Origin: Escherichia phage vB_EcoM_Lh1B
DNA: 64,000 bases
Reading direction: 5' to 3' (one strand)
Sequence record: OK428535.1
Position 1 is the stretch's first letter. Each line of letters opens with the position of its first letter. A program made the position numbers and the translations under genes. Below the pieces are notes generated by a model. The model was not told the DNA's origin. It saw only the letters and a list, made by a program, of their open reading frames with translations, and ran no database searches. Shown here in pieces: positions 3,301 through 58,703 of the stretch.

Positions 3301-3370
3301 GGCTTTGTAGCTCAGGTAGGTAGAGCAACCTCTTCGAGGAAGGTCGCCGGTTCGAGTCCGGTCAAAGCAA
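3301..3370 (+). tRNA. tRNA-like element, non-canonical (possible pseudo-tRNA)
   Basis: Canonical D-arm GCTC-AGGTAGGTA-GAGC and T-arm GCCGG-TTCGAGT-CCGGT, 6-bp acceptor; the segment between them is too short for a standard anticodon arm plus variable loop. Confidence 0.4.
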
Positions 3371-4740: not shown

Positions 4741-4784
4741 GTCCTCACTCTTCGGAGTGAGGACAACTCTTTTATTTTTTTTTG
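4741..4784 (+). terminator. rho-independent terminator
   Basis: Hairpin GTCCTCACT-CTTCGG-AGTGAGGAC followed by T-rich run. Confidence 0.7.
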
Positions 4785-4800
4785 TATCCCAAATATTCAC

Positions 4801-4827
4801 AGATAGATATTACCTAAGTGAGATGAG
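4801..4827 (+). promoter_or_regulatory. promoter-like motif AGATAGATATTACCTAAGTGAGATGAG
   Basis: Member of a recurrent motif family (see findings); sits between a terminator and the ATG at 4875. Confidence 0.5.
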
Positions 4828-7646: not shown

Positions 7647-7765
7647 TCTAAGGCTCCTATGAAGCTCGTAGGACAACTCATACCATCGGGTAATGCTATC
7701 CCATTGCCTGACATTAAAATACGTTTTACGACCTTTATGTGCGCACCATACTCGAAGAAATTTTG

Positions 7766-7784
7766 CATAGATATTATCTTCGTG
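7766..7784 (+). promoter_or_regulatory. promoter-like motif CATAGATATTATCTTCGTG
   Basis: Motif family copy 26 nt upstream of the ATG at 7810. Confidence 0.45.
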
Positions 7785-16599: not shown

Positions 16600-16651
16600 G
16601 GCAGACTCCTTAGATTCCACATAGGAAGTCAGTCACAGTCAAAAATATCTC

Positions 16652-16673
16652 AGATTGATATTATCTATGTGAC
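16652..16673 (+). promoter_or_regulatory. promoter-like motif AGATTGATATTATCTATGTGAC
   Basis: Motif family copy ~140 nt upstream of the ATG at 16806 (distal of two). Confidence 0.45.
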
Positions 16674-16747
16674 AGTTCCTGAGAAATGTCTGGACTATGT
16701 GCCTTGTAAGTAAGCGACGGCGTACTTGCATTCCATGAAATTACAGG

Positions 16748-16764
16748 CAGATATTATCTCTGCG
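16748..16764 (+). promoter_or_regulatory. promoter-like motif CAGATATTATCTCTGCG
   Basis: Motif family copy 44 nt upstream of the ATG at 16806 (proximal of two). Confidence 0.45.
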
Positions 16765-16805: not shown

Positions 16806-18659
16806 ATGGTAAAAATCGTTGACTCTAACAACAACGCTCAGCAGAACAACACTCAGACTCAAGACACCGCACCACTGGGCGGTCTGGGCAACGAGACTGT
16901 AAAAGTGCAAACTGCTGTGCCGGGTACTTCTACTGTCAGCCAATTCGATAACGCATTTGGCATCCGCAACATCAGCACCTATGCAATGCACTTCGTCAAC
17001 CTCCTGGACGAGCTGAAGAAAAGCAACGAATACCTCAACGCTTTCCGCTGGGGCACCATCGCCGGCGTGGGTAACGAAATGGGTTCCGCGGCGTATGTCG
17101 CAGGCCAATGGCAGGGCCACTGGCTGTATGGTATCATCTTCTTTGAACGCGGTCAGTCTCTGCGTCTGAAAGAAACTACCAACAACGGCCAGGAAGACTA
17201 CTACACCATCACTGAACTGTTCAACAAAGACGTGCTGGCAGTAGTACAGAAAAACATCATGGAAGCGCATGGTCTGACCAATGCGAACTTCATGATCATC
17301 AACTCCGTACCAGACCTGGGTAAAGTTCTGGATGCTGAGTGGGCACGTACTCTGATGGGTCAGATGATGATGGGCATCTTCGGTCGTATCGCAGGCTACC
17401 TGGGTACGCTGAACCTGCGTAAGCATGACCGTTATCAGGCTGCAGTAATGCCGCTGGAAGATGGTGCGGTTGTGGATGCTAACGGCCACGCACAACGTGC
17501 TGATTTCGCAATCACCGTTGAGCACAGCCCAAGCAACGTATCCGACGCCACTCCGACTCTGCTGGACACCAATCAGGTACAGGTGTATCCGCGTGTATCC
17601 GGTACTGGTTTCGTCAACATGCGTTTCACCGGTCAGAAGCCTGTCGTTAACGGCGTCTACGACCTGAAACAGCTGCAGGCTGAAATCGTAGTAAGTCTGG
17701 TCGATTCTCAAACTGAAGGTGCAATGGCACCGTATGAACGTCAACTGCTGCTGCTGGCTGCATTTGCAGAAATCGCGGCAATCGGTGGCTGGCGTGACCT
17801 GTTTGTGAAACGTCTGAACAAACAAGATCGCAAGTTCTCCCGTGTGGCAGAATACCTGTCCTGGGGTGCTGACGCTCGTCCTGATGTATCCAAAATCGAC
17901 GGTAGCCGTGAAGCTATCGAAGGTTGCCTGGATATGTTCGCACCGCGTGAAGCAGCACTGGTAGTTAGCCATCGTGCCGGTAACGGTCTGGGTGGTCTGT
18001 CTACTATGCTGTCTGAAATTGCGGTCGGTTACGACAACTCTCTGAAACAGCTGCTCGCTATTCTGAATTCCATGTCCCCGCGTGATCAGAACGGCGAAGT
18101 TGTTGCAGCGACCAGCTTCACTGCAGTATTTGCTTCTGCACTGAAAGCACAGCTGGGCGATGCCTTCAATGGTACCATCCATTGCAGCCACATCGTGAAA
18201 GCAGCCGTACCGACTGTTTCCGGTGTTTACACCGGTACTGCACAGAAACGTAGCTTCCAGGATATGGACCTGATTTCCGTTGTTACCAAACTGGGTGATA
18301 ACGCGAACGACGTCTATAGCTACCTGAACGCACAGTCCTACAGCCACCGTGAACTGAACGAGCGTCAACAGCGTATCTACATGCTGAAACTGGCCGCTTC
18401 TCTGTTCGCATCCAAAGCACCGCAAGCTACCGGTGAATCTCTGGATATGGCTATCAACCCGATCTTCGGTAAATGCCTGCTGGACTTCGTCCGTAACAAC
18501 TGCACCTGGTCTATGACTGGTGTAAATGCCTACAACACGATGGCGACCTCTCTGTTCTTCAACAACGGTGGGGAAGACTTCACGCTGTCTGGCAACGGCC
18601 TGTCTGCAAGCGGTTCCGATTTCGGTCTGGGCGTGTCTCTGAGCAACTTCAAACTGTAA
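16806..18659 (+). CDS. abundant early protein; candidate phage-nucleus shell (chimallin-like) or major structural protein
   Basis: 617-aa ORF with strongly E. coli-optimal codons (CTG, CGT, GGT, AAC, ATC, TTC), unlike neighbours; TAAGGAA site; two upstream promoter-like motifs; next to RNAP beta-prime-like gene. Confidence 0.7.
   Translation: MVKIVDSNNNAQQNNTQTQDTAPLGGLGNETVKVQTAVPGTSTVSQFDNAFGIRNISTYAMHFVNLLDELKKSNEYLNAFRWGTIAGVGNEMGSAAYVAGQWQGHWLYGIIFFERGQSLRLKETTNNGQEDYYTITELFNKDVLAVVQKNIMEAHGLTNANFMIINSVPDLGKVLDAEWARTLMGQMMMGIFGRIAGYLGTLNLRKHDRYQAAVMPLEDGAVVDANGHAQRADFAITVEHSPSNVSDATPTLLDTNQVQVYPRVSGTGFVNMRFTGQKPVVNGVYDLKQLQAEIVVSLVDSQTEGAMAPYERQLLLLAAFAEIAAIGGWRDLFVKRLNKQDRKFSRVAEYLSWGADARPDVSKIDGSREAIEGCLDMFAPREAALVVSHRAGNGLGGLSTMLSEIAVGYDNSLKQLLAILNSMSPRDQNGEVVAATSFTAVFASALKAQLGDAFNGTIHCSHIVKAAVPTVSGVYTGTAQKRSFQDMDLISVVTKLGDNANDVYSYLNAQSYSHRELNERQQRIYMLKLAASLFASKAPQATGESLDMAINPIFGKCLLDFVRNNCTWSMTGVNAYNTMATSLFFNNGGEDFTLSGNGLSASGSDFGLGVSLSNFKL
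17676..17733 (+). repeat. copy A of ~58-bp direct repeat (inside CDS 16806..18659)
   Basis: caggctgaaatcgtagtaagtctggtcgattctcaaactgaaggtgcaatggcaccg; about 90 percent identical to 18677..18732. Confidence 0.8.
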
Positions 18660-18676: not shown

Positions 18677-18732
18677 CAGGCTGAAATCGTAGTAAGTCTA
18701 TCGATTCCAAACTTGAAGGTGCAATGGCACCG
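18677..18732 (+). repeat. copy B of ~58-bp direct repeat (intergenic, includes ATG of next gene)
   Basis: caggctgaaatcgtagtaagtctatcgattccaaacttgaaggtgcaatggcaccg; ends in the first three codons of ORF 18724. Confidence 0.8.
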
Positions 18733-20250
18733 ATTGACAGAATGAGAAAGGTACCAAAATTCTACGGAATATCCGGCCGGTTGGTTAGTCAGGATAACTA
18801 TTTGTCCGATTTGCAAATAGAAGCTGCTGCCAAAGGTATTAAACCACCCACTATTATTAACGATGTCGCCGTTAACGGGGATGCGATCGAGGTTGCTGAA
18901 CTTATCGATCGCATGGTACAGAACAGAATCGTTGACGAAGAACTGAACTCTGCACCGATTTGTAGTTTGGATTGTCCGGCACCGATCGCGCATCGTTACA
19001 ATCTCGGTTGTAAGTGTCCGACGTGTGGCTATGTTGTAACTGAACATCGAATTGAATCCGATGTCTGGTTACGTGCACCTGATGAAATGGGTAACTTCGT
19101 CAACCCACGATTCTGGGCAATGTTCAATGCTTTCTTTAATAGCAAGTTGAAGAAGTTTGAACGTAACAAGGTCACTATCGAACGCGGTAATGACTTGATG
19201 ATGTGGATGATTGACCCGTATTACCGTATAGAAGAACCAGACGGTAAACGCGCACATGCTGTGAAACGTGTATTGGAAGAACATGGTTTCGTTCGTGGCT
19301 TGCGCAATCTGGTTGATAACCACGTTAGTATCTTTAACATCCTTACCACGCCAGAAGCCTGGAAGGAAATCTTCGCACCTAATCGGCATAACGCCGCTGA
19401 AGGTGAACGCTTACGTTTACAATGGAAGGAGCTATTCGAAACGCAACGTCACGCATTCTTTCCAAGACATTTACCGCTAATCTCCTCTAAACTTATCGTT
19501 ACTGAGGAAGGTCGTCGTGGTGTCATGGTAGACCCAGTGTTCACGGGTGCTATTGACGCGGTGAAAAATATCGCGTTGCTCTATACGCGGCGTAAAGCGA
19601 TCGAACCACGTTTTCTGATTAGTCGTGCTTTGAAGGCGAACCGTCAGCTAACGTACTTCCACATGGACTTCCGTCGTGAGTCTATGGAAGGTAAACCGGG
19701 TGACTATCGTGCGAAATTGGGTTCTACCCATATCCCGTTCGGTGGTCGTGCAACCATCTCACCTATCTCAGAACCACACGATGCCTGGAAGTTAAAAGCA
19801 CCGTGGCGTTGGATGGTTGGGTTGATGTCGACCCACATCGAGAACAAACTGCTACGACGGGGTTATTCGTCGCGGCAATGTGAGCGTATCGTTGCAAAAG
19901 CGGCAATGCAGTATGACCCGCTTGTAGACGAAATCTTTAAAGAACTGATTCGTGAATCCCCAGGCGGTCTTGGGATCATGGTCATACCGTTACGTAACCC
20001 AACGCTGGTACAGTTGTCTATTCAAACGCTGTACATCGATGAAGTTGTTACCGATGTTAACCAGTGTTCGCTGCGTATCTCTGACCGTGTGATCAAGATG
20101 GCTAACGGTTCGAAAAGAGCCCCATCGGACGGGAAACCTCTGATGCGTATTCTCCTGAAATGCTGGGAAACCCTAAAGCGTATCTACCAGAAATGGGGAC
20201 GAAAGTCTGAAACAACAGATACGATGGCCTACGCTAAACAATACTGCTAA
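18724..20250 (+). CDS. multisubunit RNA polymerase beta-prime-like subunit, N-terminal fragment
   Basis: Zinc-ribbon CSLDC...CKCPTCGYVVT (cf. beta-prime CxC...CxxCGVEVT); ELIRESP and RNPTLVQLSIQT match beta-prime EVIREHP / RAPTLHRLGIQA. Confidence 0.65.
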   Translation: MAPIDRMRKVPKFYGISGRLVSQDNYLSDLQIEAAAKGIKPPTIINDVAVNGDAIEVAELIDRMVQNRIVDEELNSAPICSLDCPAPIAHRYNLGCKCPTCGYVVTEHRIESDVWLRAPDEMGNFVNPRFWAMFNAFFNSKLKKFERNKVTIERGNDLMMWMIDPYYRIEEPDGKRAHAVKRVLEEHGFVRGLRNLVDNHVSIFNILTTPEAWKEIFAPNRHNAAEGERLRLQWKELFETQRHAFFPRHLPLISSKLIVTEEGRRGVMVDPVFTGAIDAVKNIALLYTRRKAIEPRFLISRALKANRQLTYFHMDFRRESMEGKPGDYRAKLGSTHIPFGGRATISPISEPHDAWKLKAPWRWMVGLMSTHIENKLLRRGYSSRQCERIVAKAAMQYDPLVDEIFKELIRESPGGLGIMVIPLRNPTLVQLSIQTLYIDEVVTDVNQCSLRISDRVIKMANGSKRAPSDGKPLMRILLKCWETLKRIYQKWGRKSETTDTMAYAKQYC

Positions 20251-20453
20251 CGGTTGTGATAATGGGTAATCAGCAGCGAAGCCTCGTGAGAGGAACGTTC
20301 AACGACTATCGCTGAAATGCGAGTAGGGGTCCCAGTGGACTTCGAAGTGGGAGAACACCTAAGGCGATAGCTATGGTGAAGATATAGTCTGTGCCTTATC
20401 GAGAGATAAGGAGGGTGTCTTAGCACACCTGCTGTATACGGAAACGGTATACG

Positions 20454-20693
20454 ATGGACAAACAGGATTTCGATGGTGACCAGTTCCAGGTACGTTTGCC
20501 AGTCGATGAAACTGAGATGAAGTTGGCGCTCCAATTCCGTCCAGATAACGGCTTTATGTCTTCTACTGATGTGGACCGCGTAGAACACGGCATGGTTTTA
20601 CATAACGAGCTAATCAGTATGCAGAACCAGTTCCTTATTGAAGCAGATGAGGATGATGAAGAAGGCATTCCGTTGGAAGCGGTGATGGGCTAA
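20454..20693 (+). CDS. hypothetical small acidic protein
   Basis: 79-aa ORF, weak ribosome-binding site. Confidence 0.3.
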   Translation: MDKQDFDGDQFQVRLPVDETEMKLALQFRPDNGFMSSTDVDRVEHGMVLHNELISMQNQFLIEADEDDEEGIPLEAVMG

Positions 20694-25115: not shown

Positions 25116-25200
25116 GAAACAAAATAAAAAATACGCCCAAGGGAAACCTTGGGCTATTAACGCTTATGCGTGGTCCTGCAACACACACTGTAAGAAGATT

Positions 25201-25221
25201 TAGATAGATATTATCTCAGTG
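25201..25221 (+). promoter_or_regulatory. promoter-like motif TAGATAGATATTATCTCAGTG
   Basis: Motif family copy 30 nt upstream of the ATG at 25251. Confidence 0.5.
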
Positions 25222-25250: not shown

Positions 25251-26885
25251 ATGAAAATTATGAAGATTAAAGACCGGATGACAATCGAGCATCATGGTCA
25301 AGAGGTCACATTTATTGGCTTACGTTATCGGAAGGATAACAACGCACCCGACTACATCACTGTTAAAGGTAAACAGATTGCACGCGACAACATTCTCTTC
25401 ATGGAATTACAACGCGTGTGGGATTATTTAACGCCAGACGAACAAGATGAACTGTTCATGGCGTATCTGATGCTGGACGAGCTGGCAAACGAATCGACGG
25501 AAACGCAGCGTAAGCACATGCCGAAGATTGTGCAGACGATTGCGAAGTTCCACAAGGCCGAAGTGTATCGTAAGCTGTATCCCATCGATAAGCTGTGGAT
25601 TCCGCAGAACATGGAAGATACGCACGATGAAATGAACAGTAATTATCCGGAAGCGATGACGTACATTCGTCCGGACTATTACGAGTTGTTGATACTGGTC
25701 CTGATGATTAAACCGTATATTCCGGTGTTCCTCACCATGGGGACGTTCCCGATAGGTAAGAACTTGCCAATCGAAACACATCGGAAAATGGTGTACAATC
25801 TGACATACTGTCTGGAGATGCTTCAAGACACAGAAGTCATGTCTTTACCTGCTATTCCGAAACTGCGTGGGTTCCTACAGACAGTGATGGAAAAGGTAGA
25901 AAAAGAACTGGCAAACAAAGGTACGAACAGCACCAGTTTGTCGGTACTAGCTACGGTGCGGGGCTATGGCACGGATATGATGGAAGATTATATCCTGGCG
26001 TATGCTATTATTAAATTGTTGGCTGTCCGTGAAGTCGGTGGTGAATTACCGGTTGAAATCATGGTTAACAACAATATCGTCACCGGCATGTATTTTCTGG
26101 TTAAACAAGAGATTGAAACAGGTTTTGCAAACAAAATCTCTAACCAGCCGGTGCTGTTAAAAGCGCATCCGGAAAGTGTGGTATTCAATGGCGAAAAGGG
26201 TAAGATAAACGCCATGGATTTGGTGCAGGCACGTTCTCCTGCACAGATGAAAGAATACGTCCGTACCGAGTACGTATTTAAAGAATACCGCTCTTTCTTG
26301 AAAACAATGCGTCTGGATAATGCCGCTCCAGCAGATGTTAAGTTATTGATTGATTCGCAACTGGCAACACATGACGGTCCTGTCTATACGTTGCACGAAT
26401 GGTTAGTCGCATTAGCACTCCATCGTAGCGTGCATTATAAGACGTATACTGAATGTGGACCAGAAGCGTTTCGCTACGGTATGGCGTTGGCACAGGCAAC
26501 TTATCTCAATTATGGAATGTATGACGTTGCGCAACTGTTAAGTTGCAATATGGTGCGTTCTGAGATGTCTGCCGGTTATGCAGCCGACCCAATTCGATCT
26601 GAACTCAAAGCAGATTTAGATAGATATTATCTTCAGGAGTATCGCAACCCGCGTAATCTCGAACCGCAATCTACACCACGGGAATCACTGACCTTGTTAC
26701 ACAAGGATCACATCAACCCGTATCTGTTCCATCTCAGGGCTACACCAGAAGCAGCTGCGCTGCTGAAGTGTGAGACGGATCAGCCAAACTATATACCTCA
26801 CTTGTCACTGCACAATAGCCTGGCGGAGTTTATGGTGTTGAATGCACGTCGCAAGTTAGAAGAAGTTGAATGGTTTAATTCTTAA
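25251..26885 (+). CDS. hypothetical protein
   Basis: 544-aa ORF; contains an intragenic promoter-like motif near its 3' end. Confidence 0.6.
   Translation: MKIMKIKDRMTIEHHGQEVTFIGLRYRKDNNAPDYITVKGKQIARDNILFMELQRVWDYLTPDEQDELFMAYLMLDELANESTETQRKHMPKIVQTIAKFHKAEVYRKLYPIDKLWIPQNMEDTHDEMNSNYPEAMTYIRPDYYELLILVLMIKPYIPVFLTMGTFPIGKNLPIETHRKMVYNLTYCLEMLQDTEVMSLPAIPKLRGFLQTVMEKVEKELANKGTNSTSLSVLATVRGYGTDMMEDYILAYAIIKLLAVREVGGELPVEIMVNNNIVTGMYFLVKQEIETGFANKISNQPVLLKAHPESVVFNGEKGKINAMDLVQARSPAQMKEYVRTEYVFKEYRSFLKTMRLDNAAPADVKLLIDSQLATHDGPVYTLHEWLVALALHRSVHYKTYTECGPEAFRYGMALAQATYLNYGMYDVAQLLSCNMVRSEMSAGYAADPIRSELKADLDRYYLQEYRNPRNLEPQSTPRESLTLLHKDHINPYLFHLRATPEAAALLKCETDQPNYIPHLSLHNSLAEFMVLNARRKLEEVEWFNS
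26617..26637 (+). promoter_or_regulatory. intragenic promoter-like motif TAGATAGATATTATCTTCAGG
   Basis: Motif family copy inside CDS 25251..26885, ~265 nt upstream of the next ATG. Confidence 0.4.
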
Positions 26886-30339: not shown

Positions 30340-30360
30340 CGTCTCTCCTTAAAATAAAAC

Positions 30361-30375
30361 AGATAGATATTATCT
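30361..30375 (+). promoter_or_regulatory. promoter-like motif AGATAGATATTATCT
   Basis: Motif family copy 30 nt upstream of the RNAP beta-like gene. Confidence 0.5.
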
Positions 30376-30405
30376 TACCGAGGTAACCAAAAGGAGCATT
30401 TACGA

Positions 30406-32643
30406 ATGAAAACACCAGTCGAACTCATGTCAAGCGTTGCTGACCGTGAGGTGAATATCACTGGCGTATCTGGGGCACGTGCCTCAATGGTGGGTGGACA
30501 TATGAAGTCGGCGGTACCACTGGACAATCCAGATCCGACTATCCATTTTACCGGCGCTGATGTGAACTACCACGATTATTGTTTTAACGATATCGTGGAA
30601 GACAGTGGTACCGTGTGCAGTTACACAACCAAAGAAGGTGTTACTCGTGCAGCTGTTTTTGCACGCTATGGTCGTGAAGGGGATCACGATCCGCTCCAAC
30701 ATGTTATCTTCTTCACGCGCGCAGATTTAACCAACCAGCGCAAAGTGATGATTGATGTAATCGATATCAAGTATTACACCAACCACGATAACATTTTCTC
30801 GTCTAAGAAAGAGGCTACTGGGAAACTTCAGGCGTTGCTGCGCGGGCAGACTCAGCACCTGGAAAAAGATGAAATGCTTACCGTGCTGCCGGCACAGAAA
30901 GACGGTGAGTTTGTCGATGGGGTCAACCTGCACACCGTGACAATGTCGCACCCGGACATTATCGAGGACTCGTACACCATCTCCGAAACTGCAGCGAAGG
31001 CGATGCACGCTTATGGTTTGCGTGCAATTGACTTTACCCTCCGTGACGACGAGTACCTGCTTGACACGTATGGGACAACGGGTATTGATGGCGTTCGTCG
31101 ACCACAGTACCTACCCAATAAAGGACAGGCAATTCGTGATGATGGGTTGGTTATTGCCGCGCGCCGTTTCGATAAGCTATGGGCAGCCATTGACTCGCAC
31201 GTAGGTGAAACACAACATATCTCTCCGCACTTCGACCGTTGTGAGTATGTTGATGCTGACCCTGAGCATTACAAAGCGCGTCAGGCTGGCGACTTTGAAA
31301 AGATGGAACGTACTGGTTCTCGTGTCGTTGATATTCAGGTATGGCGGGACGAAACCAAATGCGATCGTGGTGTTAACAATATCGCATGTACCGAAGAGAA
31401 CAAACGCGAGTTAGATCACTACGCGAACGCTTTGAAACGTTTTTACAATGATATCGTGCGGTTCTATTTTGCGATGTCCAAGGACAAGAATATTGTCTGG
31501 TCACCGAAAGCGTTTGAGATTCTTGACAAGGCGTTCTGTTCTGAGACGTATGAAGTCTATAACGACTTCCGTGAAGAGATTGGTCGTGAATACGATGAAG
31601 CCATGCGTAAAGGTGAGTATAACCGTTCTGCTGATAAGAACGTGTTGAACAAACTGGCGCAGCCGGTTCAGCGTGGTCTCTGGGACCCAATTGGTAGCTA
31701 CACGATACGCATCGTGGTACGTTATCCAATCCCAGTTACCGTCTCATCGAAAATCACCGACCGTTCAGGTACAAAAGGTATCGTGGGCGCAGTGCGGCCT
31801 GATGAAGAAATGCCGATTAACGAGTTCGGAGAACGTGTGCATGTCATTCGTTCCATGAACGCCGTAATTCGTCGTTCGACTTATGCTGCGCTGTTCCACA
31901 TGTATTGGTCTGCTGCATCCGAGCAGTTGAAGATGCGGTTGAAACCATTACTTGCTGCCAACCAGGTTGATGAAGCCTGGGAAATCCTGATGGACTATAT
32001 CGATCGCTATAACCCACGCTGGACATTCTATCTCAATGCCAGTCACCCAGATACTGAGTCACGTCTGGAACTCTTTAAAGAGATTTACGACTTCACGATT
32101 CGTATCTGGCTTCCCCACGAATTGAATGCCACCCAGGTAGAAATCTGCCGTGCTCTAGGCGAGTATGCACCACGCAAGTCTAAGCTACTGATTACTAACT
32201 ATCAGGGTGAGAAAGAGTGGACGAAGAACCAGTTCTACGTCGGCATGGTAGAGACTCTGCGCCTGGATAAAACCGGTCGTGAGTTCTCCAGTATCTCATC
32301 GATGTACACGAACTATTTGGGTTGTATTGATGCATCCAACCAAGGACGTGGTTCATATCCGATTAACCTGAAAGGGTTGAAGTGGGGTGGTCCTTCCGAG
32401 CAGCGTCTTACCGACGGCTTTGGTCCGGGCAACTTCCCCGAAACTCATGACCGCGCTAATAACCCTGCGGTACACCGTGCGATCGTAACGGGGTTGTATA
32501 ACTCGCCAACACCAACCAATCCGGGGGTGCTGGTCGATCGTAAGAAACTGCCAATGGGAGATTCGCAGATTGACAGGATGATACGTAACATCCATCGCTG
32601 TGAAGGTTTTGAATTAGTGCGTCCAATTCGGGAGGATAAATAA
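30406..32643 (+). CDS. multisubunit RNA polymerase beta-like subunit (C-terminal portion)
   Basis: KITDRSGTKGIVGAVRPDEEMPINEFGERVHVI...SMNAV parallels beta [33 protein letters not shown]...SRMNIG. Confidence 0.7.
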   Translation: MKTPVELMSSVADREVNITGVSGARASMVGGHMKSAVPLDNPDPTIHFTGADVNYHDYCFNDIVEDSGTVCSYTTKEGVTRAAVFARYGREGDHDPLQHVIFFTRADLTNQRKVMIDVIDIKYYTNHDNIFSSKKEATGKLQALLRGQTQHLEKDEMLTVLPAQKDGEFVDGVNLHTVTMSHPDIIEDSYTISETAAKAMHAYGLRAIDFTLRDDEYLLDTYGTTGIDGVRRPQYLPNKGQAIRDDGLVIAARRFDKLWAAIDSHVGETQHISPHFDRCEYVDADPEHYKARQAGDFEKMERTGSRVVDIQVWRDETKCDRGVNNIACTEENKRELDHYANALKRFYNDIVRFYFAMSKDKNIVWSPKAFEILDKAFCSETYEVYNDFREEIGREYDEAMRKGEYNRSADKNVLNKLAQPVQRGLWDPIGSYTIRIVVRYPIPVTVSSKITDRSGTKGIVGAVRPDEEMPINEFGERVHVIRSMNAVIRRSTYAALFHMYWSAASEQLKMRLKPLLAANQVDEAWEILMDYIDRYNPRWTFYLNASHPDTESRLELFKEIYDFTIRIWLPHELNATQVEICRALGEYAPRKSKLLITNYQGEKEWTKNQFYVGMVETLRLDKTGREFSSISSMYTNYLGCIDASNQGRGSYPINLKGLKWGGPSEQRLTDGFGPGNFPETHDRANNPAVHRAIVTGLYNSPTPTNPGVLVDRKKLPMGDSQIDRMIRNIHRCEGFELVRPIREDK

Positions 32644-34748
32644 TGGCGGGTCGTTCTGTACACGTGCGTGATTTGCGTATGCTTAACTCTGATCAGGTGT
32701 GGAAACTACGCGGGCGTTATTACGTGACATTCGACGATGGTAAGTCGTTGGAAATGTCTAGTCGCCACATCAAACTCAGCTGGCCGTATTGGGGTGTGTC
32801 GCGTCTGTATCCGCAGGTGCCCACTCCATCGACCATGGCGTATCGTCCAGGTCAGGTAGCAACAGATGACCTGCATCTGGACTTTATGTCGGAAGCAGCG
32901 GTACTGGCCCGTAAAGCAGGTGTCGACCTTGCTGAAACGCGTTATATCCTGAGTCAACATGTCTACGCCGATGCGTTCAACATGACAGTGAAGAACTTGC
33001 TGTCGTATTGTACGACAATCGACTTTGACACGATGATGGAGATCTACGACCACCCGAACTTCGAACTCATCCGTCAGTGGGAAGTGCAATACCCTACTGG
33101 CTACGATGAAGATGGTCAGGATATGGTTGAAGAAGCGTACAAGCTTATCGAGAAAATCTTCAAAGACCCTGCGCTACGGTATAACCCGGTCGTGATGTCG
33201 GTACTGGACGGTACTGTGAAGATGAACCAGGTACTGCAAGCCTTCGTGCGTGGTAAAACGTCAGAAATTGACTCACGTGTATACACCAATCAGGTGTGGG
33301 AAGGCTTCTTTACCGGAATGCACTCGGTTATTTCGCGTTTGAAAGAATCCGGTGCAACATCACGTTCCCACTTGTACAACACTGACAAGATTGCCGAAGC
33401 AGAATACGCCTCACGTAAACTGCAGCTGGCAGCAAACGTACTGATGTATTTCACGTACGACGACTGCGGTACAACTCACGCACACCGCTACACGTTTAAG
33501 GATACGCAGCTGGATGAGCGTGCCTATAAAGCGATGGTGGGGATGCGTTATCGTTTAGAAGGCGATAATGGTCCGTGGTTGAGATTTGAGAAAGGTGGAT
33601 ACGCAGACCTGGTTGGTAAACCGCTGGTCTTCCGTAGTGCAATGACCTGTAAAGAGATGGCGAATCAGTCCATCTGTGCGACCTGCATGGGGGATTTGAT
33701 TTATAACCTCTCTGAAGGCACGTCACCGGGTCACCTGGCATCCACTTCCATCTCAGAAAAGGGTACACAGGGAATTCTCTCCACCAAGCACCTTGACTTC
33801 TTGCGTTATCTGCTCAACCTGGTACTCACGCCGAGAATGCGTGAGTACATGACCGAATACAAACATAACTCTCTGAAAGGGTTGTGCTTGCTACCAAAAC
33901 CACAGCGTGGTAATTGGTCAGAATACGAGTTGGTCGTTACCGACAAAGTTTATTCGGAGCTGAGCCAGATTGCGTATCATGAAGATCTCGATGCAATCGA
34001 TGAAACAGCATTGCCGGAAATCACCGACTTGACATTCCAGCGTCGTTTAGAAGATGGGCAAATCATCGCTGCAGATTCTATCGATGTGCGAATGGGTGTT
34101 TGTGGGAACTTCTCTAAACCGTTCTTGCATTACTTCTTGAAACAACGTGCGAACATTCGTATCGAGAAGAAGACGGTTCAGATTCCTTTGAAAGGATGGA
34201 ACCCGAAACACCCGGTACTGGTCTACACCAACCGTTCTGAATCGATGGCAGAATTCGTGGCAGGGTTAGAAACCAAGCTACGTTCAATCGCAGCCGATAA
34301 GAACGAAGACATTGTGGAAATCATCAACACAGCCTCGACTGTGAAGTTGAACAAGAAACAAGGTCGTGTGAAACCGGTAACGTTGGTTGAAATGGGTGGT
34401 GCTACAGAGAAACAGTGTACTTATGCGTTGATGGATACGTTTAAGTACATCCAGCGTAAGCTGAGCGGTATACCGATGACGCACATTGCGATTATGTTGG
34501 CGATATCTCGTGTAGAGTCACCAACCAATCCGTTCCCGGCAGTAGGATTTGACAGTGAGGATTCTACTAATGCCACCGGGAAACGGTTTGTCGATCACAA
34601 CACGCTCATTAGTTTGCGCTCGGCAATTCCGATGTTGTTGTTTGAAGGACAGCAGGGGAATATCGATCGCGTTGGTTTTTATACCGAGTACAAAATCCCG
34701 GCATCGTTGTACGATGACCTAGGAGCCGCTGTGGTAATTGAGTTGTAA
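32643..34748 (+). CDS. multisubunit RNA polymerase beta-prime-like subunit (C-terminal portion)
   Basis: CATCMGDL (cf. CAHCYGRDL) and trigger-loop-like TSISEKGTQGILSTKH (cf. QSIGEPGTQLTMRTFH); TAATG coupling to beta-like gene. Confidence 0.65.
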   Translation: MAGRSVHVRDLRMLNSDQVWKLRGRYYVTFDDGKSLEMSSRHIKLSWPYWGVSRLYPQVPTPSTMAYRPGQVATDDLHLDFMSEAAVLARKAGVDLAETRYILSQHVYADAFNMTVKNLLSYCTTIDFDTMMEIYDHPNFELIRQWEVQYPTGYDEDGQDMVEEAYKLIEKIFKDPALRYNPVVMSVLDGTVKMNQVLQAFVRGKTSEIDSRVYTNQVWEGFFTGMHSVISRLKESGATSRSHLYNTDKIAEAEYASRKLQLAANVLMYFTYDDCGTTHAHRYTFKDTQLDERAYKAMVGMRYRLEGDNGPWLRFEKGGYADLVGKPLVFRSAMTCKEMANQSICATCMGDLIYNLSEGTSPGHLASTSISEKGTQGILSTKHLDFLRYLLNLVLTPRMREYMTEYKHNSLKGLCLLPKPQRGNWSEYELVVTDKVYSELSQIAYHEDLDAIDETALPEITDLTFQRRLEDGQIIAADSIDVRMGVCGNFSKPFLHYFLKQRANIRIEKKTVQIPLKGWNPKHPVLVYTNRSESMAEFVAGLETKLRSIAADKNEDIVEIINTASTVKLNKKQGRVKPVTLVEMGGATEKQCTYALMDTFKYIQRKLSGIPMTHIAIMLAISRVESPTNPFPAVGFDSEDSTNATGKRFVDHNTLISLRSAIPMLLFEGQQGNIDRVGFYTEYKIPASLYDDLGAAVVIEL

Positions 34749-34751
34749 ACC

Positions 34752-34778
34752 GAGGGGCCTTGCGCCCCTCTTTTTTTG
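34752..34778 (+). terminator. rho-independent terminator
   Basis: Hairpin GAGGGGC-CTTG-CGCCCCTC then TTTTTTT. Confidence 0.7.
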
Positions 34779-37870: not shown

Positions 37871-38491
37871 ATGAGTCGTCGCAAAAAGAAACCCGCTTAT
37901 AACCCACGTAAAGACGCACGCGATTTCGTCAAGGCGATGATGCAGTCTGTGTTGAAAAAACAAGCTGTGTTTATCGAAAGTACCGAATTCCTGTCAGGCA
38001 AAATTGATCGGGAGCGTGAAGTAACTGAAGCCATTGCGCACGAAGAGCTGAAAGCTTTCACGTTGAAAGCGCTGGATGAAGCACAAGCGGCATTCCTCGG
38101 CATGTGCCAACAAGGCAAAGAGCTGTTCGGTAAACTGATTGTTGAGGCAGATGCTAAGGCTGTGCCGGTGTTTGACATGCTGAACGATAACAGCAAAACC
38201 TGGAAAGAGGTTAAAGACCAGTTCCACGTCGACCACACCGAGCTGTCTTTGATTGACCAGCGGGCGAATATGCTCGCGATGGATATCCAGGGCACCAGTA
38301 TCGAAATCTTCTCTACGTATAACGCGAAAGTGAAGTTCGTGAAGCAGGCGCTGAATAACGGGCATACCGTGGAACAAGCCGAAGTTCTGTTGGCCGAAGC
38401 TCTGGCTAATAATTCGAAAGAACTCCCTAAAAACGCCATCGTCGATCACAACGACGTTGTAGTAGAAACCGAGGAAGCGGCACATGTCTGA
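37871..38491 (+). CDS. hypothetical protein
   Basis: ATG at 37871 with AAAGGA upstream (MSRRKKKPAY...). Confidence 0.5.
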   Translation: MSRRKKKPAYNPRKDARDFVKAMMQSVLKKQAVFIESTEFLSGKIDREREVTEAIAHEELKAFTLKALDEAQAAFLGMCQQGKELFGKLIVEADAKAVPVFDMLNDNSKTWKEVKDQFHVDHTELSLIDQRANMLAMDIQGTSIEIFSTYNAKVKFVKQALNNGHTVEQAEVLLAEALANNSKELPKNAIVDHNDVVVETEEAAHV

Positions 38492-40454
38492 GATCCAAGA
38501 TCAGCGTCCGGGTAATGCCCGTCNCCCTAATCCCGATCAGCCAGCCCCTGTGGCGGCTGCTACCCAACAAGAGATGATTCTTCCGACCGTGCCTGATGAC
38601 GCGAATCCGGATGCAATCATCATGNCTATTAAACANNNNNACCCCNATTTTNNTTTTGCCCGTGCAGAAGAAGTTTATCACCAACATTATCATCAGCCGG
38701 AGCCTAAGCTCGAGCGTCCGACGTTTGTAGAAGAAGCTTTGCCCGAACCTGCTGCACCGGTACAGCCTGTATCCCAGACCTTCTCTGAACAGGTGCATGA
38801 GCATATTCATCACACCCCAGAACCGGNGGNAGAGAAANCGCCNGNGGNANAACCNNCNCCCCNNCNAAAAACNCCGGNNGGGGGNGNCCCNNNNAACCCG
38901 GGGNNAAAAAAAAAGNAAAACNCNNCNCCNAAGGTTCCGGAANAANAACAGGNCCNNGNGANTNACTTNGGTAANACCCATTTAGCTGAAACCGCCGAAA
39001 TGGGTGAAGATGAAGCTGATCGTATCCTGACACAGTCGAAGATGTTGATTGGTCTGAAACAAGACCCTAACATCATTGCAGACTCTCTGCAAAAGTTCCT
39101 CGGTAACATTAAACGTTCACCGAAAGACGGTCGGCTGCTGTTCGAAAGCCCTGAACAACAACAGGTTTACGACGACATCTATCGTGCTTTGAACATGACA
39201 CCGCCACGTCTACAGGACGGCGTACCGGCATTCGCTGGTGCACTGGACCGTGGTGACACCGCTTGGGAACAGCGTGTGATGTTGCCGGACGGTAAGGCAT
39301 CTGGTGCTATTGCACCGCGTGACAATATGCACACTGGCGCGCTGGCTGCTTTGCGTCGTGTACGTAAGTCGGGTATTCCGAACATGGTTTGGCTGCCGGC
39401 CACAGGTATCTACGTGNGCTTCCNCGCACCACATGAACGCGACCTTTGTGACTTCGACATGCGTCTAACACTGGAAACTGCGACCATCGGTATGCAGACC
39501 TACGGATTGATGCTGTCGTCGTCTTCTGGCGTGTACATGCGTCACATGGTTGAATTCGCACTTCAGTTTGTTACCGAAGCAACCATCGATTGTGCAGGTA
39601 ACGATCTGCGTACGGTGCTGTTGGATACCATTGATCTGGCTGACTACTGGCTGGTTATTCTGGGTCCGTTGCAGGCGAAGTGGCCGTCTGGTATTCCATG
39701 GACGCTGATGTGTGGCGAAGACGGTTGCACTCAGCAGGAAGATGTGAAGCTGAATATCGCACGTTGTATCCGTTTTGGTTCCGGTCTGTTTAGCGACCTG
39801 CAGAAANAACNGTGGGNACGTCAGCGCGGTACTGAGCGTCCAGTGATTTCTATTGCTGAACAGCGCGAATATATCGCGGCGCATCAGGTTGACCCATCCT
39901 CGGTATTTGAATACCACGACGTGCGTGTTGAATTTGGCCGTTCTACCCTGGGTAGCTTCTTTGACTCCACCGAGAAGTGGATTGAAGACGTTAACGCGTC
40001 AACTACGGCAGCGCTGTCTGAATTTGCTACCGAGCGTGAACGTGAATCCCATATGCGTTTAACTGCGGAAGCCCGTCGCTTAACGCGCTACGCTCACATG
40101 GTGAAATCTATCACTGTTAATGAGCAACGTGAAGTAAACGGTGAAATGCAGGTTATCCCACAAACTGAAACCGACACAGCGAAAATCGTTGAGATGCTGG
40201 AAGAGCTGTCTTCCGACCGTATCTACGTTGGTCAGTTTGAAAACGCGATTGCTGAATACAACGAACGTACACGTTTAGCGGTATTCGGTTACATGGGTAA
40301 ACGCTGCCCGGCGTGCGGTAAAACACACGGCGAGAAAGACGGTCTGTATCGCGGTATTGTTACCATCTCACCGGACAGGGTTTTTTTCGTGCTCTCTCGA
40401 GTGGTGTCCGAGATTCAGAAATTCTTGCTGGATCAATACGCCGATATTGGCTAG
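38484..40454 (+). CDS. hypothetical protein; Pro/Glu/Lys-rich low-complexity N-region, C-terminal CPACG zinc-ribbon-like motif
   Basis: 656-aa ORF; frame through 38521..38990 is provisional because of many N calls. Confidence 0.45.
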   Translation: MSEIQDQRPGNARXPNPDQPAPVAAATQQEMILPTVPDDANPDAIIMXIKXXXPXFXFARAEEVYHQHYHQPEPKLERPTFVEEALPEPAAPVQPVSQTFSEQVHEHIHHTPEPXXEKXXXXXXXPXXKXPXGXXXXNPGXKKKXNXXXKVPEXXQXXXXXXGXTHLAETAEMGEDEADRILTQSKMLIGLKQDPNIIADSLQKFLGNIKRSPKDGRLLFESPEQQQVYDDIYRALNMTPPRLQDGVPAFAGALDRGDTAWEQRVMLPDGKASGAIAPRDNMHTGALAALRRVRKSGIPNMVWLPATGIYVXFXAPHERDLCDFDMRLTLETATIGMQTYGLMLSSSSGVYMRHMVEFALQFVTEATIDCAGNDLRTVLLDTIDLADYWLVILGPLQAKWPSGIPWTLMCGEDGCTQQEDVKLNIARCIRFGSGLFSDLQKXXWXRQRGTERPVISIAEQREYIAAHQVDPSSVFEYHDVRVEFGRSTLGSFFDSTEKWIEDVNASTTAALSEFATERERESHMRLTAEARRLTRYAHMVKSITVNEQREVNGEMQVIPQTETDTAKIVEMLEELSSDRIYVGQFENAIAEYNERTRLAVFGYMGKRCPACGKTHGEKDGLYRGIVTISPDRVFFVLSRVVSEIQKFLLDQYADIG

Positions 40455-40950: not shown

Positions 40951-41808
40951 ATGATTGATATTTATACCGACTATGCGGCTGTATTGACAGTCAACCGTCA
41001 CGAAGGTCGTGCAGCACCGATGCTAGATTTAGTGACGCTCGGTATGGATTACGGTTACGATGTGGCGTTATCCGATGTTTATAGCAACCCGTTGTCTGAC
41101 CCTGCGGACGAAACTGTTCGTCTGGAATCCATTATCGTGAAGGTAGCGGTTGGGTTAGGCAACCGCCTCGGTATCGGACTTAATCCACAAATCGTCTTCC
41201 AGAAACCGAAAGAAACCGTACGTATCCTTCACGGTGTGTTGGAAGCCTTCGAAGAGTTCGAAGACAGTGATGCCCTTTACGGGATTGTCTCCTCTGGTGA
41301 GACACCAGAGTATATCCTGGAGAACATGTGTCGTTATGTTTACGGTGACGAAAACCTGCACTTCGAAGACCTGATTACTGTTGTCAGCCCACGCGTGCTT
41401 ACCGTGATGGAAAACTTCTTAGCGGCAGAGTCGTTGGAAAGCCAGAAAAGAAATGGCGATGATGAGCGCCAAGAGCGTATCGTCACTTACTTGCGGTTGT
41501 TCCCTGAGAACCCGTCAGCGTTTGTCTTTATGAATCTGCCTGCTGAACCAGACTTAACAGTGGTGCAACAATCGTTAGAATTTCGCGTAGAAGACATTAG
41601 CGAAATTGATTTGCTGACGATGTATGCGGTAGGTTTATCGATTATTCCTCATGCGGAGTTTGACGGGGCTTACGGTGACTTAGAAAAGAACCTTGCCTTG
41701 TTGAACGTCGACAACGTCCCGCCTGGAGAAATCTTGCGGAAAGGATTGGAAGCGTTGAAAGTCATATACGCTAGTGGGGTCGCGGAGGTAGATGATGAAC
41801 AAGATTGA
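40951..41808 (+). CDS. hypothetical acidic protein
   Basis: ORF; start ambiguous between 40924 and 40951. Confidence 0.45.
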   Translation: MIDIYTDYAAVLTVNRHEGRAAPMLDLVTLGMDYGYDVALSDVYSNPLSDPADETVRLESIIVKVAVGLGNRLGIGLNPQIVFQKPKETVRILHGVLEAFEEFEDSDALYGIVSSGETPEYILENMCRYVYGDENLHFEDLITVVSPRVLTVMENFLAAESLESQKRNGDDERQERIVTYLRLFPENPSAFVFMNLPAEPDLTVVQQSLEFRVEDISEIDLLTMYAVGLSIIPHAEFDGAYGDLEKNLALLNVDNVPPGEILRKGLEALKVIYASGVAEVDDEQD

Positions 41809-58652: not shown

Positions 58653-58663
58653 TTAGACTGGCG

Positions 58664-58703
58664 AATCCCCCACTTCGGTGGGGGATTTACCTTTTCTTTT
58701 TTT
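58664..58703 (+). terminator. rho-independent terminator
   Basis: Hairpin AATCCCCCAC-TTCG-GTGGGGGATT then T-run. Confidence 0.7.

What the first reader, a model, noticed from the sequence alone, without database searches (positions are those of the whole stretch)
25201..25221. Dispersed, partly palindromic promoter-like motif AGAT(A)GATATTA(T/C)CT-N2-3-GTG, at least 8 copies
The same ~20-nt AT-rich element recurs at 4801, 7766, 16652, 16748, 25201, 26617, 30361 and 58726, always in plus orientation and mostly 26-60 nt upstream of a start codon, often right after a terminator. Its core AGATA...TATCT is an inverted repeat, so it could be a promoter for a phage-encoded RNA polymerase, a dimeric regulator site, or both. 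From memory, early promoters of phiKZ-like phages carry an AT-rich TATATTAC-type element, which the 4801 and 58726 copies contain literally. The genes it precedes (abundant 617-aa protein, RNAP beta-like gene, others) would then form one temporal class.
Basis: partly seen in the sequence, partly recalled or inferred. Interest (0 to 1): 0.65.

Follow-up and report, generated by a model that had tools for sequence, protein, structure and literature searches.

The report
Early promoters of a giant phage
The repeated AT-rich motif is real and is almost certainly the early promoter read by the RNA polymerase that this SPN3US-like giant (nucleus-forming) phage carries in its virion; it is the local version of the known phiKZ early promoter, so it is a clean but ordinary result.

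Summary
The window has exactly eight copies, all on the + strand, at the stated positions. A 20-nt consensus with up to 3 mismatches finds 8, against 0.06 expected.

The window is the left 64 kb of an SPN3US-like Chimalliviridae phage. Complete SPN3US has 23 copies, all on the + strand. Twenty-one are intergenic in a genome that is 93.6% coding, mostly 26-94 nt upstream of + strand genes.

The element spans about 35 nt and is asymmetric: A(-29), T-run, CAGATA, (G/T)ATATTA(T/C), six bases, then an invariant G. That G is the predicted start site.

The copies sit at orthologous positions in five other genera. phiKZ has the same architecture (TATATTAC-6N-G) in front of orthologous genes, where it is the mapped early promoter of the virion RNA polymerase.

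All five non-virion RNA polymerase subunit genes, and the nuclear-shell gene chmA, lie first or second behind a copy. No virion-polymerase gene does.

The palindrome is not conserved: 62% of copies are perfect here, 0% in CR5 and phiKZ. The dimeric-regulator reading is therefore unsupported.

No transcription start has been mapped in this clade. This is a new member of a known kind, of low-to-moderate interest.

The parts
4791..4820 (+). Early-promoter copy 1 (A-29 to predicted +1 G at 4820), TATTAC variant. It precedes the 316-aa gene at 4875 (SPN3US gp5 homologue, function unknown).
   Evidence: 0 mismatches. Orthologous copies occur in SPAsTU, Asesino, Huxley and Kwan. A strong terminator at 4741-4764 lies just upstream.
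7755..7784 (+). Early-promoter copy 2, predicted +1 at 7784. It lies in a divergent region behind a - strand gene and heads the operon that starts at 7810 (gp9 to gp20 homologues; the CR5 record annotates its large gene in this block, CR5_020, as DNA polymerase).
   Evidence: Orthologues in all 5 other genera. phiKZ has a matching site after PHIKZ042.
16642..16671 (+). Early-promoter copy 3, the distal chmA promoter P1. Predicted +1 at 16671, leader 135 nt.
   Evidence: Conserved in the 6-phage alignment A1.
16735..16764 (+). Early-promoter copy 4, the proximal chmA promoter P2. Predicted +1 at 16764, leader 42 nt.
   Evidence: phiKZ has an orthologous TATATTAC site 80 nt before PHIKZ054.
16806..18659 (+). 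chmA, the 617-aa nuclear-shell protein (chimallin), and first gene of this early operon.
   Evidence: 64% identical to Asesino gp039, which was shown by GFP tagging to form the nuclear shell (PMC11724907). No direct sequence hit to PDB chimallins or to Pfam.
18724..20693 (+). Non-virion RNAP beta'-N subunit gene (PHIKZ055 / SPN3US gp23 homologue), second gene behind the chmA promoters. Here it is interrupted by a group I intron (about 20103-20452).
   Evidence: PDB 7ogp_A PHIKZ055, E 1.5e-32. Rfam RF00028, 69.4 bits. 350-nt insertion relative to SPN3US.
25192..25221 (+). Early-promoter copy 5, the focal copy of the finding. Predicted +1 at 25221, 30 nt before the ATG at 25251.
   Evidence: 0 mismatches. 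Orthologues in 5 genera. phiKZ has an orthologous site before PHIKZ068.
25251..26885 (+). Homologue of PHIKZ068, the sigma-like promoter-specificity subunit of the non-virion RNAP (SPN3US gp30).
   Evidence: PDB 7ogp_B PHIKZ068, E 2e-6, residues 47-435 aligned to 41-413. Syntenic with phiKZ 068-069-070.
26608..26637 (+). Early-promoter copy 6. It is embedded in the coding sequence of the gp68-like gene. Predicted +1 at 26637, 261 nt before the next gene (26898, gp31 homologue).
   Evidence: Conserved in all 5 other genera. The codons GAT-AGA-TAT-TAT are fixed. Third-position identity is 0.88 inside the motif and 0.58 outside.
30351..30380 (+). Early-promoter copy 7, predicted +1 at 30380, 26 nt before the ATG at 30406. 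It lies in a divergent region behind a - strand gene.
   Evidence: Conserved in alignment A2 of 6 phages.
30406..34748 (+). Non-virion RNAP beta (30406-32643) and beta'-C (32643-34748) subunit genes (SPN3US gp34 and gp35). The operon is closed by a terminator at 34752-34770.
   Evidence: PDB 7ogp_C PHIKZ071, E 1.9e-29, and AR9 nvRNAP 7s00_C. PHROG RNA polymerase beta subunit. Terminator. gp35 is nvRNAP beta'-C according to PMC5105663.
58716..58745 (+). Early-promoter copy 8, TATATTACCT variant. Predicted +1 at 58745, 44 nt before the ATG at 58789 (gp55 homologue, function unknown).
   Evidence: 0 mismatches. A strong terminator at 58663-58688 lies just upstream.
4741..4764 (+). Intrinsic terminator (10-bp stem, UUCG loop, T-run) that ends the preceding unit just upstream of copy 1.
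58663..58688 (+). Intrinsic terminator (11-bp stem, UUCG loop) just upstream of copy 8.

Best explanation
The motif is the early-class promoter of an SPN3US-like chimallivirus. It is read by the multisubunit RNA polymerase packaged in the virion (vRNAP; in SPN3US gp42, gp218, gp240, gp241 and gp244) and ejected into the cell with the DNA.

The element is about 35 nt long and directional. Numbered from the predicted start site, it consists of:
- an invariant A at -29 within an A-rich patch;
- a T-run at -23 to -21;
- CAGATA at -20 to -15;
- the AT-rich core (G/T)ATATTA(T/C) at -14 to -7;
- six weakly conserved bases;
- an invariant G, the predicted +1, usually followed by A.

Transcripts would carry 26-55 nt leaders. 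Two copies give longer leaders of 135 and 261 nt. Transcripts would run to UUCG-loop intrinsic terminators.

In this window the eight promoters would switch on chmA, four of the five subunits of the second (non-virion) polymerase, a replication-gene block and several small genes of unknown function. The virion enzyme would thereby bootstrap the enzyme that transcribes middle and late genes.

What is shown: the motif, its statistics, its conservation, its relation to genes, and its sequence and positional homology to phiKZ early promoters. What is inferred: that vRNAP binds it, the exact start site, and early timing.
For: 1. Non-random and directional. The window has 8 copies against 0.06 expected, all on the + strand. 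SPN3US has 23 sites at 31.6 bits or more, against a next best of 13.8, and all are on the + strand although 22% of coding bases are on the - strand. Twenty-one of 23 are intergenic where only 6.4% of the genome is intergenic (binomial P about 1e-23). The predicted leaders are mostly 26-94 nt.

2. Phylogenetic footprint. All seven left-end sites recur at orthologous positions in SPAsTU, Asesino, Huxley and Kwan, and six of them in CR5; these represent five genera whose ChmA is 44-78% identical. A-29, A-13, T-12, T-10, A-8 and G+1 are invariant in 57 of 57 sites.

3. Homology to an experimentally defined class. phiKZ carries aaaaaTTT-nAGATy-TATATTAC-6N-G on the + strand in front of PHIKZ054 (chmA), PHIKZ068, PHIKZ043 and PHIKZ121-123. 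These are the orthologues of the genes behind the copies here. The SPN3US matrix recovers four phiKZ sites above every shuffle. Published work assigns this AT-rich element to phiKZ early, vRNAP-dependent, rifampicin-resistant transcription, and places an early-motif start site at PHIKZ054 (PMC8244752; PMC10914365; PMC7598289). AR9 early promoters are AAATATATATTAT-(6N)-G+1, and the phiKZ and phiR1-37 start sites lie 6 nt downstream of the element (PMC5312081). That is the same spacing as the invariant G here. Conservation at -10, -20 and -30 is also described for phiKZ and 201phi2-1 (PMC11512511).

4. Regulon logic. All five nvRNAP subunit genes (gp23, gp30, gp34, gp35 and gp77 homologues) are the first or second gene behind a copy. 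None of the five vRNAP genes has a copy in its upstream intergenic region. The nvRNAP cannot make itself, so these genes need a pre-existing polymerase.

5. The vRNAP subunits are head-associated in SPN3US according to mass spectrometry (PMC5105663).

6. Not a sigma-70 promoter. No sigma-70-type hit coincides with any copy, and such hits are not enriched overall.

7. Selection at the DNA level. The intragenic copy keeps fixed synonymous codons across six phages.
Against: - No 5'-end mapping, time-course RNA data or in vitro transcription exists for SPN3US-like phages in the literature I could search. Function and start site therefore rest on analogy.
- The start site could be off by 1-2 nt.
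- The core TATTAT at -12 to -7 also resembles a bacterial -10 hexamer, so some contribution from host RNAP is not strictly excluded.
- Rifampicin independence has been shown for phiKZ and AR9, not for this clade.
- Two sites have long leaders: the copy inside the gp68-like gene (261 nt in the window and in SPN3US) and the distal post-capsid copy in SPN3US (233 nt). Their role is less clear.
- In 201phi2-1, not all nvRNAP genes are near early promoters, so the regulon argument is not universal.
Confidence: 0.85

Rival explanations
1. The motif is a host sigma-70 promoter, as phage T4 early promoters are. In this reading TATTAT at -12 to -7 is the -10 hexamer, and the A/T-rich upstream part acts as an UP element.
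For: TATTAT matches TATAAT at 5 of 6 positions. It sits at the canonical distance from a conserved purine start. The upstream region is A/T-rich.
Against: - No -35 element is present. Positions -36 to -30 are weakly conserved and unlike TTGACA.
- None of the sigma-70-type hits of the scanner coincides with a copy, and such hits are at or below the shuffle expectation.
- 3 of 8 window copies, 7 of 23 SPN3US copies and nearly all phiKZ copies have C at -7, where sigma-70 needs T.
- The strongly conserved CAGATA at -20 to -15 and A-29 have no sigma-70 counterpart.
- The homologous phiKZ element works without host RNAP (PMC7598289; PMC5312081).
Confidence: 0.05
2. The palindromic core AGATA-T-TATCT is an operator for a dimeric phage regulator. 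Such a regulator could act alone or on top of promoter function, for example to shut off early genes.
For: 5 of 8 window copies and 10 of 23 SPN3US copies are perfect 5+1+5 palindromes. In SPN3US every nvRNAP operon has a perfect one. An HTH protein gene (gp101) lies behind one copy.
Against: - Perfect palindromes fall to 14% in Kwan and 0% in CR5 and phiKZ at orthologous sites, while the asymmetric positions stay invariant.
- The inner pairs follow trivially from the ATATTAT core.
- The reverse strand scores at most 24.5 bits with the 34-nt matrix and at most 13.8 with the 50-nt matrix, against 31.6-52 for the true sites.
- Strand bias is 23 to 0.
- No regulator is identified.
Confidence: 0.07
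3. The motif is a middle or late promoter read by the non-virion RNA polymerase.
For: It is a phage-specific motif found upstream of many genes. In phiKZ, chmA also has a middle promoter.
Against: - It precedes all five nvRNAP subunit genes, which cannot depend on their own product for first expression.
- It matches the phiKZ early motif. It does not match the middle motif (TACT centred at -22) or the late motif (TATG at the start site).
- It is absent in front of structural and vRNAP genes.
Confidence: 0.03

Closest known systems
phiKZ early promoters (virion-RNAP class; Ceyssens et al. 2014; Wicke et al. 2020, PMC8244752; Putzeys et al. 2024, PMC10914365)
   Same: - Same architecture: A-rich at about -30, a T-run, nAGATn at -20 to -15, an AT-rich core at -14 to -7 (TATATTAC in phiKZ; GATATTAT or TATATTAC here), six bases, then a conserved G.
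- Same orientation relative to the genes.
- Same orthologous locations: before chmA, before the gp68-type subunit gene, after the conserved - strand gene (PHIKZ042 / gp8), and after the major capsid gene before the gp123-type subunit gene.
- The SPN3US matrix finds the phiKZ sites.
- Similar copy number: 23 in SPN3US against 28-32 in phiKZ.
   Different: - The consensus differs at -14 (G versus T), -7 (T versus C) and -6/-5 (CT here).
- CAGATA is more strongly conserved here.
- chmA here has two tandem early-type copies, whereas phiKZ has one early plus one middle promoter.
- One copy here is embedded in the gp68-like coding sequence. No counterpart was seen in phiKZ.
- No start-site mapping or timing data exist for this clade.
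AR9 early promoters, AAATATATATTAT-(6N)-G+1 (Lavysh et al. 2017, PMC5312081)
   Same: Both have an extended AT-rich core ending in ATATTAT, exactly six bases, then G as the start site. Both are found upstream of early operons of a phage with two multisubunit RNAPs.
   Different: AR9 has a uracil-containing genome, lies outside Chimalliviridae and forms no nucleus. It has no CAGATA element. The similarity is limited to the core and the spacing.
Bioinformatically predicted early motifs of 'each jumbo phage encoding RNAPs' (Lavysh et al. 2016, Virology; cited in PMC7598289)
   Same: That work reportedly found a conserved AT-rich motif of about 10 nt, centred near -10, upstream of presumed early operons in every such phage. 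It may well include SPN3US.
   Different: I could not read that paper. I therefore cannot say whether this exact consensus, the 23-site list, the -20/-30 parts or the intragenic copy were reported.
Bacterial sigma-70 -10 element (TATAAT at -12 to -7)
   Same: It shares the position and AT-rich character of the core, including A at the second position.
   Different: The motif here has no -35 element, often has C at -7, and carries additional conserved -20 and -29 positions. The phiKZ homologue is independent of host RNAP.

Membership tests
Chimalliviridae / phiKZ-type vRNAP early promoter | Highly conserved AT-rich core of about 10 nt, with sequence similarity to the phiKZ/AR9 core (TATATTAC / ATATATTAT) | tested here: met
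   The core is (G/T)ATATTA(T/C). Three of 8 window copies contain ATATTAC, and one of them (58726) the full TATATTAC. The SPN3US matrix recovers phiKZ sites above all shuffles.
Chimalliviridae / phiKZ-type vRNAP early promoter | Additional conservation in the -20 and -30 regions (described for phiKZ and 201phi2-1) | tested here: met
   CAGATA at -20 to -15, a T-run at -23 to -21, and A-29 invariant in 57 of 57 sites. The published description is in PMC11512511.
Chimalliviridae / phiKZ-type vRNAP early promoter | Co-directional with, and shortly upstream of, operon-leading genes; intergenic | tested here: met
   23 of 23 copies on the + strand, 21 of 23 intergenic, leaders 26-94 nt for most.
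Chimalliviridae / phiKZ-type vRNAP early promoter | Drives early genes, including the non-virion RNAP subunit genes, but not virion-RNAP or structural genes | tested here: met
   All five nvRNAP subunit homologues are first or second behind a copy. No copy lies in the upstream intergenic region of the vRNAP genes gp42, gp218, gp240, gp241 or gp244, and none precedes a - strand gene. Met at the level of gene content only; timing was not measured.
Chimalliviridae / phiKZ-type vRNAP early promoter | The phage packages a multisubunit RNAP in the virion | tested here: met
   The window is about 98% identical to SPN3US. Its vRNAP subunits were detected in heads by mass spectrometry (PMC5105663). The gp42 homologue is at window 41792-43090.
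Chimalliviridae / phiKZ-type vRNAP early promoter | Transcription starts about 6-7 nt downstream of the core, at a conserved purine | not testable with these tools
   An invariant G lies exactly 6N after the core in 57 of 57 clade sites and in the 7 phiKZ sites examined. This is consistent, but no 5'-end data are available.
Chimalliviridae / phiKZ-type vRNAP early promoter | Transcripts appear immediately after infection, are rifampicin-resistant and do not depend on new protein synthesis | not testable with these tools
   Shown for phiKZ and AR9 only. No data were found for SPN3US-like phages.
Sigma-70 promoter | -35 TTGACA-like and -10 TATAAT-like hexamers spaced 16-18 nt apart, with T at -7 | tested here: not met
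   No scanner hit overlaps a copy. There is no conserved -35. C at -7 occurs in 3 of 8 window copies and 7 of 23 SPN3US copies.
Palindromic operator of a dimeric regulator | Two-fold symmetric conservation, so that both half-sites are conserved and the site reads alike on both strands | tested here: not met
   Outer arm pairs are complementary in only 0-57% of sites in the other genera. Perfect palindromes fall from 62% to 0%. The invariant positions are asymmetric. The reverse strand scores far lower.

The most novel reading that the evidence does not exclude
In the Seoulvirus lineage, the early promoter in front of the core genes has acquired a second function. These genes are chmA, every nvRNAP operon and the replication block. 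Their perfectly palindromic AGATA-T-TATCT variant would double as an operator for a phage-encoded dimeric regulator, for example the HTH protein gp101, whose own gene sits behind a non-palindromic TATATTAC-type copy. Early transcription would then split into two differently timed sub-classes, or be shut off once the nucleus forms. A related possibility is that the conserved promoter embedded in the sigma-like subunit gene sets the ratio between that subunit and the downstream gp31-like and gp32-like proteins.
Probability: 0.07. Interest if true: 0.5.

Novelty: new member of a known kind. Interest (0 to 1): 0.25.

Why it matters
The result gives a concrete, testable map of early transcription for the SPN3US / Erwinia jumbo-phage clade. 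It lists 8 predicted start sites in this window and 23 in SPN3US. No transcription start data exist for this clade, although SPN3US is a genetic model system.

It also shows that the virion-polymerase promoter has kept both its architecture and its genomic positions between enterobacterial and Pseudomonas chimalliviruses. This holds even though the ChmA proteins have diverged beyond BLAST recognition. The invariant positions (A-29, A-13, T-12, T-10, A-8, G+1) narrow down which bases the still uncharacterised vRNAP must read.

Practically, the motif can be used to annotate early genes, which are candidates for host takeover and anti-defence functions. It can also be used to design early-expression cassettes for engineering these phages. 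It does not reveal a new kind of system.

Tried and rejected
- Sigma-70 reading. I scanned 60 kb of the window. No hit coincided with a copy and there was no enrichment. Rejected.
- Palindrome / dimer site. I quantified arm complementarity across 8 phage sets. It is not conserved. Rejected as the primary function.
- Hidden weaker or reverse-strand copies. Matrix scans of the window and of SPN3US gave a clean gap. Only one extra candidate appeared, with an indel, at SPN3US 167511.
- Direct identification of the 617-aa protein as chimallin. phmmer against PDB up to E=10, Pfam, and BLASTP against PHIKZ054 all found nothing. Identity was established instead through 64% identity to the experimentally characterised Asesino gp039.
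- Primary papers and tables. Ceyssens 2014 and Lavysh 2016 are not held. The supplementary start-site tables of the phiKZ dRNA-seq and ONT-cappable-seq papers are not held. I therefore derived the phiKZ motif positions from the phiKZ sequence myself.
- Conserved block between the two chmA promoters as a possible dispersed middle-promoter motif. It occurs only once in SPN3US, so it is not a repeated element.
- Literature search for any promoter or transcriptome work on SPN3US-like phages. None was found.

Full report
WHAT THE WINDOW IS. A 3.7-kb piece of the window is 97.5-98.8% identical to Salmonella phage SPN3US and its relatives (phage 1252, SPLA5c, E. coli phage EC001 and others). These are roughly 240-kb jumbo phages of the genus Seoulvirus. 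Gene order matches the left end of SPN3US. The phage belongs to the nucleus-forming, two-RNA-polymerase group, Chimalliviridae.

THE OBSERVATION.
- The 20-nt consensus AGATAKATATTAYCTNNGTG with up to three mismatches finds exactly those eight, all on the + strand. The expectation from dinucleotide-preserving shuffles is 0.06.
- A weight matrix built on the eight copies separates them (36.6-42.6 bits) from everything else. The next best hits, at 20.4 bits or less, are reverse-strand shadows of true copies.

GENOME-WIDE PICTURE. I assembled the SPN3US genome from five annotated pieces and scanned it.
- With a 50-nt matrix, 23 sites score 31.6-51.8 bits. The next best scores 13.8, and shuffled genomes reach at most 15.1.
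- All 23 sites are on the + strand, although 33 of 264 genes and 22% of coding bases are on the - strand.
- 21 of 23 are intergenic in a genome that is 93.6% coding (binomial P about 1e-23).
- The distance from the conserved downstream G to the next + strand start codon is 26-94 nt for 20 of 23 sites.
- 7 of 23 sites follow a strong UUCG-loop terminator. In the window this applies to 2 of 8.

ANATOMY. Numbering is from the conserved G as +1, pooling 57 sites from six phages.
- Invariant (100%): A-29, A-13, T-12, T-10, A-8 and G+1.
- Conserved at 77-96%: CAGATA at -20 to -15, and T-9.
- -14 is G (72%) or T.
- -7 is T (84%) or C.
- A at +2 is found in 82%.
- The 5+1+5 palindrome AGATA-T-TATCT spans -15 to -5.

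CONSERVATION. ChmA homologues identify relatives with 44-78% protein identity. I fetched the syntenic left ends of SPAsTU, Asesino, Huxley, Kwan and CR5, which represent five genera.
- The SPN3US matrix finds the motif at every orthologous position: before the gp5, gp9, chmA (twice), gp30 and gp34 homologues, and inside the gp30 homologue. The one exception is the gp5 site in CR5.
- Alignments of the chmA and gp34 upstream regions show the motif as conserved islands.
- The intragenic copy (window 26617) encodes D-R-Y-Y with the codons GAT-AGA-TAT-TAT fixed, although neighbouring Arg and Tyr codons vary. Third-position identity is 0.88 inside the motif and 0.58 outside. This indicates selection on the DNA itself.

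THE PALINDROME. Perfect palindromes make up 62% of copies in the window and 43% in SPN3US, SPAsTU and Asesino. The figure is 29% in Huxley, 14% in Kwan, and 0% in CR5 and phiKZ. The outer pairs decay, while the inner pairs follow trivially from ATATTAT. Together with the 23:0 strand bias and the asymmetric invariant positions, this argues against a two-fold symmetric protein site as the conserved function.

WHAT THE GENES ARE.
- The 617-aa protein is 64% identical to Asesino gp039, which forms the nuclear shell when GFP-tagged (PMC11724907). It has no detectable sequence similarity to phiKZ or PDB chimallins. This agrees with the reported identity of about 10% (PMC9365700).
- The gene after it matches PHIKZ055, the nvRNAP beta'-N subunit (E 1.5e-32).
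- The gene 30 nt downstream of the focal copy matches PHIKZ068, the sigma-like nvRNAP subunit (E 2e-6).
- The gene behind copy 30361 matches PHIKZ071, the nvRNAP beta subunit (E 1.9e-29). It is followed by the beta'-C subunit gene and a terminator at 34752-34770.
- Outside the window, two copies follow the major capsid gene of SPN3US. They precede gp76-gp77, and gp77 is the PHIKZ123 homologue (E 1e-22; PMC5105663).
- All five nvRNAP subunit genes are therefore the first or second gene behind a copy. None of the five virion-RNAP genes (gp42, gp218, gp240, gp241, gp244) has a copy in its upstream intergenic region.
- Most other downstream genes are small and of unknown function, which is typical of early genes.

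COMPARISON WITH phiKZ. I fetched two phiKZ segments.
- TATATTAC occurs 8 times on the + strand and never on the - strand in 50 kb. It is embedded in aaaaaTTT-nAGATy-TATATTAC-6N-G.
- These sites lie before PHIKZ054 (chmA), before PHIKZ068, after the - strand gene PHIKZ042, and after the major head gene before PHIKZ121-123. They are the orthologues of four positions in the SPN3US clade.
- The SPN3US-derived matrix picks out four phiKZ sites above every shuffle, all on the + strand.
- The literature assigns this AT-rich element to early, vRNAP-dependent, host-RNAP-independent transcription. It also reports an early-motif primary start site at PHIKZ054.
- AR9 early promoters are AAATATATATTAT-(6N)-G+1, and the phiKZ and phiR1-37 start sites lie 6 nt after the element. 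This is exactly the spacing of the invariant G here.
- On that basis I predict start sites at window 4820, 7784, 16671, 16764, 25221, 26637, 30380 and 58745.

MECHANISM. The most likely mechanism is that the virion-packaged multisubunit RNAP, which is head-associated in SPN3US, recognises this directional element of about 35 nt and initiates at the G. It would then transcribe chmA, the nvRNAP subunits, a replication block and small takeover genes, up to UUCG-loop terminators. The motif, its statistics, its conservation, the gene content and the homology to phiKZ are shown. Binding by vRNAP, the start site and the timing are inferred. I give this 0.85.

RIVALS.
- Host sigma-70 promoter (0.05). 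There is no -35, C is frequent at -7, and no scanner hits coincide with a copy.
- Dimeric regulator site, alone or superimposed on the promoter (0.07). The palindrome is not conserved.
- nvRNAP middle or late promoter (0.03). This reading is circular for the nvRNAP genes, and the motif does not match the middle or late consensus.

NOVELTY. The kind is known. A review states that such a motif can be found bioinformatically in every RNAP-encoding jumbo phage, citing Lavysh et al. 2016, which I could not read. I found no paper describing the motif, start sites or transcriptome of SPN3US-like phages. I rate the finding a new member of a known kind, with modest extras:
- complete coverage of the nvRNAP genes;
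- tandem early copies before chmA and before gp76;
- a conserved promoter embedded in the sigma-like subunit gene;
- positional orthology with phiKZ.
Interest is 0.25.

Noticed in passing
window 20090-20452 (+): A group I intron (Rfam RF00028, 69.4 bits, E 1.6e-15) interrupts the nvRNAP beta'-N subunit gene (18724-20250, continuing at 20453-20693). SPN3US lacks these 350 nt. In the first search, many relatives stop aligning at window 20102, while EC001, 1252, SPLA5c, SPLA3 and JN03 align through. The intron is therefore a presence/absence polymorphism in an essential polymerase gene. The phiKZ orthologue is also split (PDB name 'PHIKZ055 ... PHIKZ056.1').
   Followed up: partly
window 26608-26637, inside the gene 25251-26885: One promoter copy lies inside the coding sequence of the sigma-like nvRNAP subunit gene. 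Synonymous codons are frozen (GAT-AGA-TAT-TAT) in six phages from five genera. It would give a 261-nt leader ahead of the next gene. No counterpart was seen in phiKZ.
   Followed up: partly
window about 16700-16740, between the two chmA promoter copies: A block (AAGCGACGGC-TACTTGCATTCC) is conserved across five genera. It can pair with upstream GTAAGTA to form a hairpin in the leader of the distal transcript. It occurs only once in SPN3US, so it is not a dispersed motif. Its function is unknown.
   Followed up: partly
window 25135-25154: A GC-rich hairpin sits between two + strand genes. Its T-run is on the - strand only (the + strand has an A-run before it). It lies about 50 nt upstream of the focal promoter copy. 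It may be a bidirectional or antisense terminator.
   Followed up: no
window 4741, 5837, 11833, 15479(-), 49059, 58663, 62076: Many intrinsic terminators share a CTTCGG (UUCG tetraloop) hairpin design, so they form a family of their own. This resembles the conserved terminator motif reported for phiKZ.
   Followed up: no
window 38524-38858: 133 N characters lie scattered within the gene at 38484-40454, and there is one N at about 58718. This shows that the window comes from a draft-quality sequence.
   Followed up: no
window 2141-2213 and 3301-3370 (+): Two tRNA genes (Rfam). In SPN3US the corresponding genes are tRNA-Trp and an 'OTHER' tRNA. No promoter copy lies in front of them.
   Followed up: no
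SPN3US (L001-L005) sites 56299, 65418, 94244, 113991, 165692, 223282; window 58726: A sub-class of copies is nearly identical over about 30 nt (TTTCAGATATATATTAC[CT]TAGGTGAGAGTTA). These precede small accessory genes, including an HTH protein (gp101). The GATATTATCT variant precedes the conserved core genes. Whether the two variants differ in strength or timing is unknown.
   Followed up: partly
literature (PMC9365700 versus PMC7411985 / PMC11724907): The chimallin structure paper names the SPN3US chimallin 'gp244'. In the GenBank record, gp244 is the small vRNAP beta'-C protein, and the ChmA orthologue by synteny and by identity to Asesino gp039 is gp22. An earlier SPN3US paper proposed the abundant gp22 as a head scaffold protein.
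   Followed up: no
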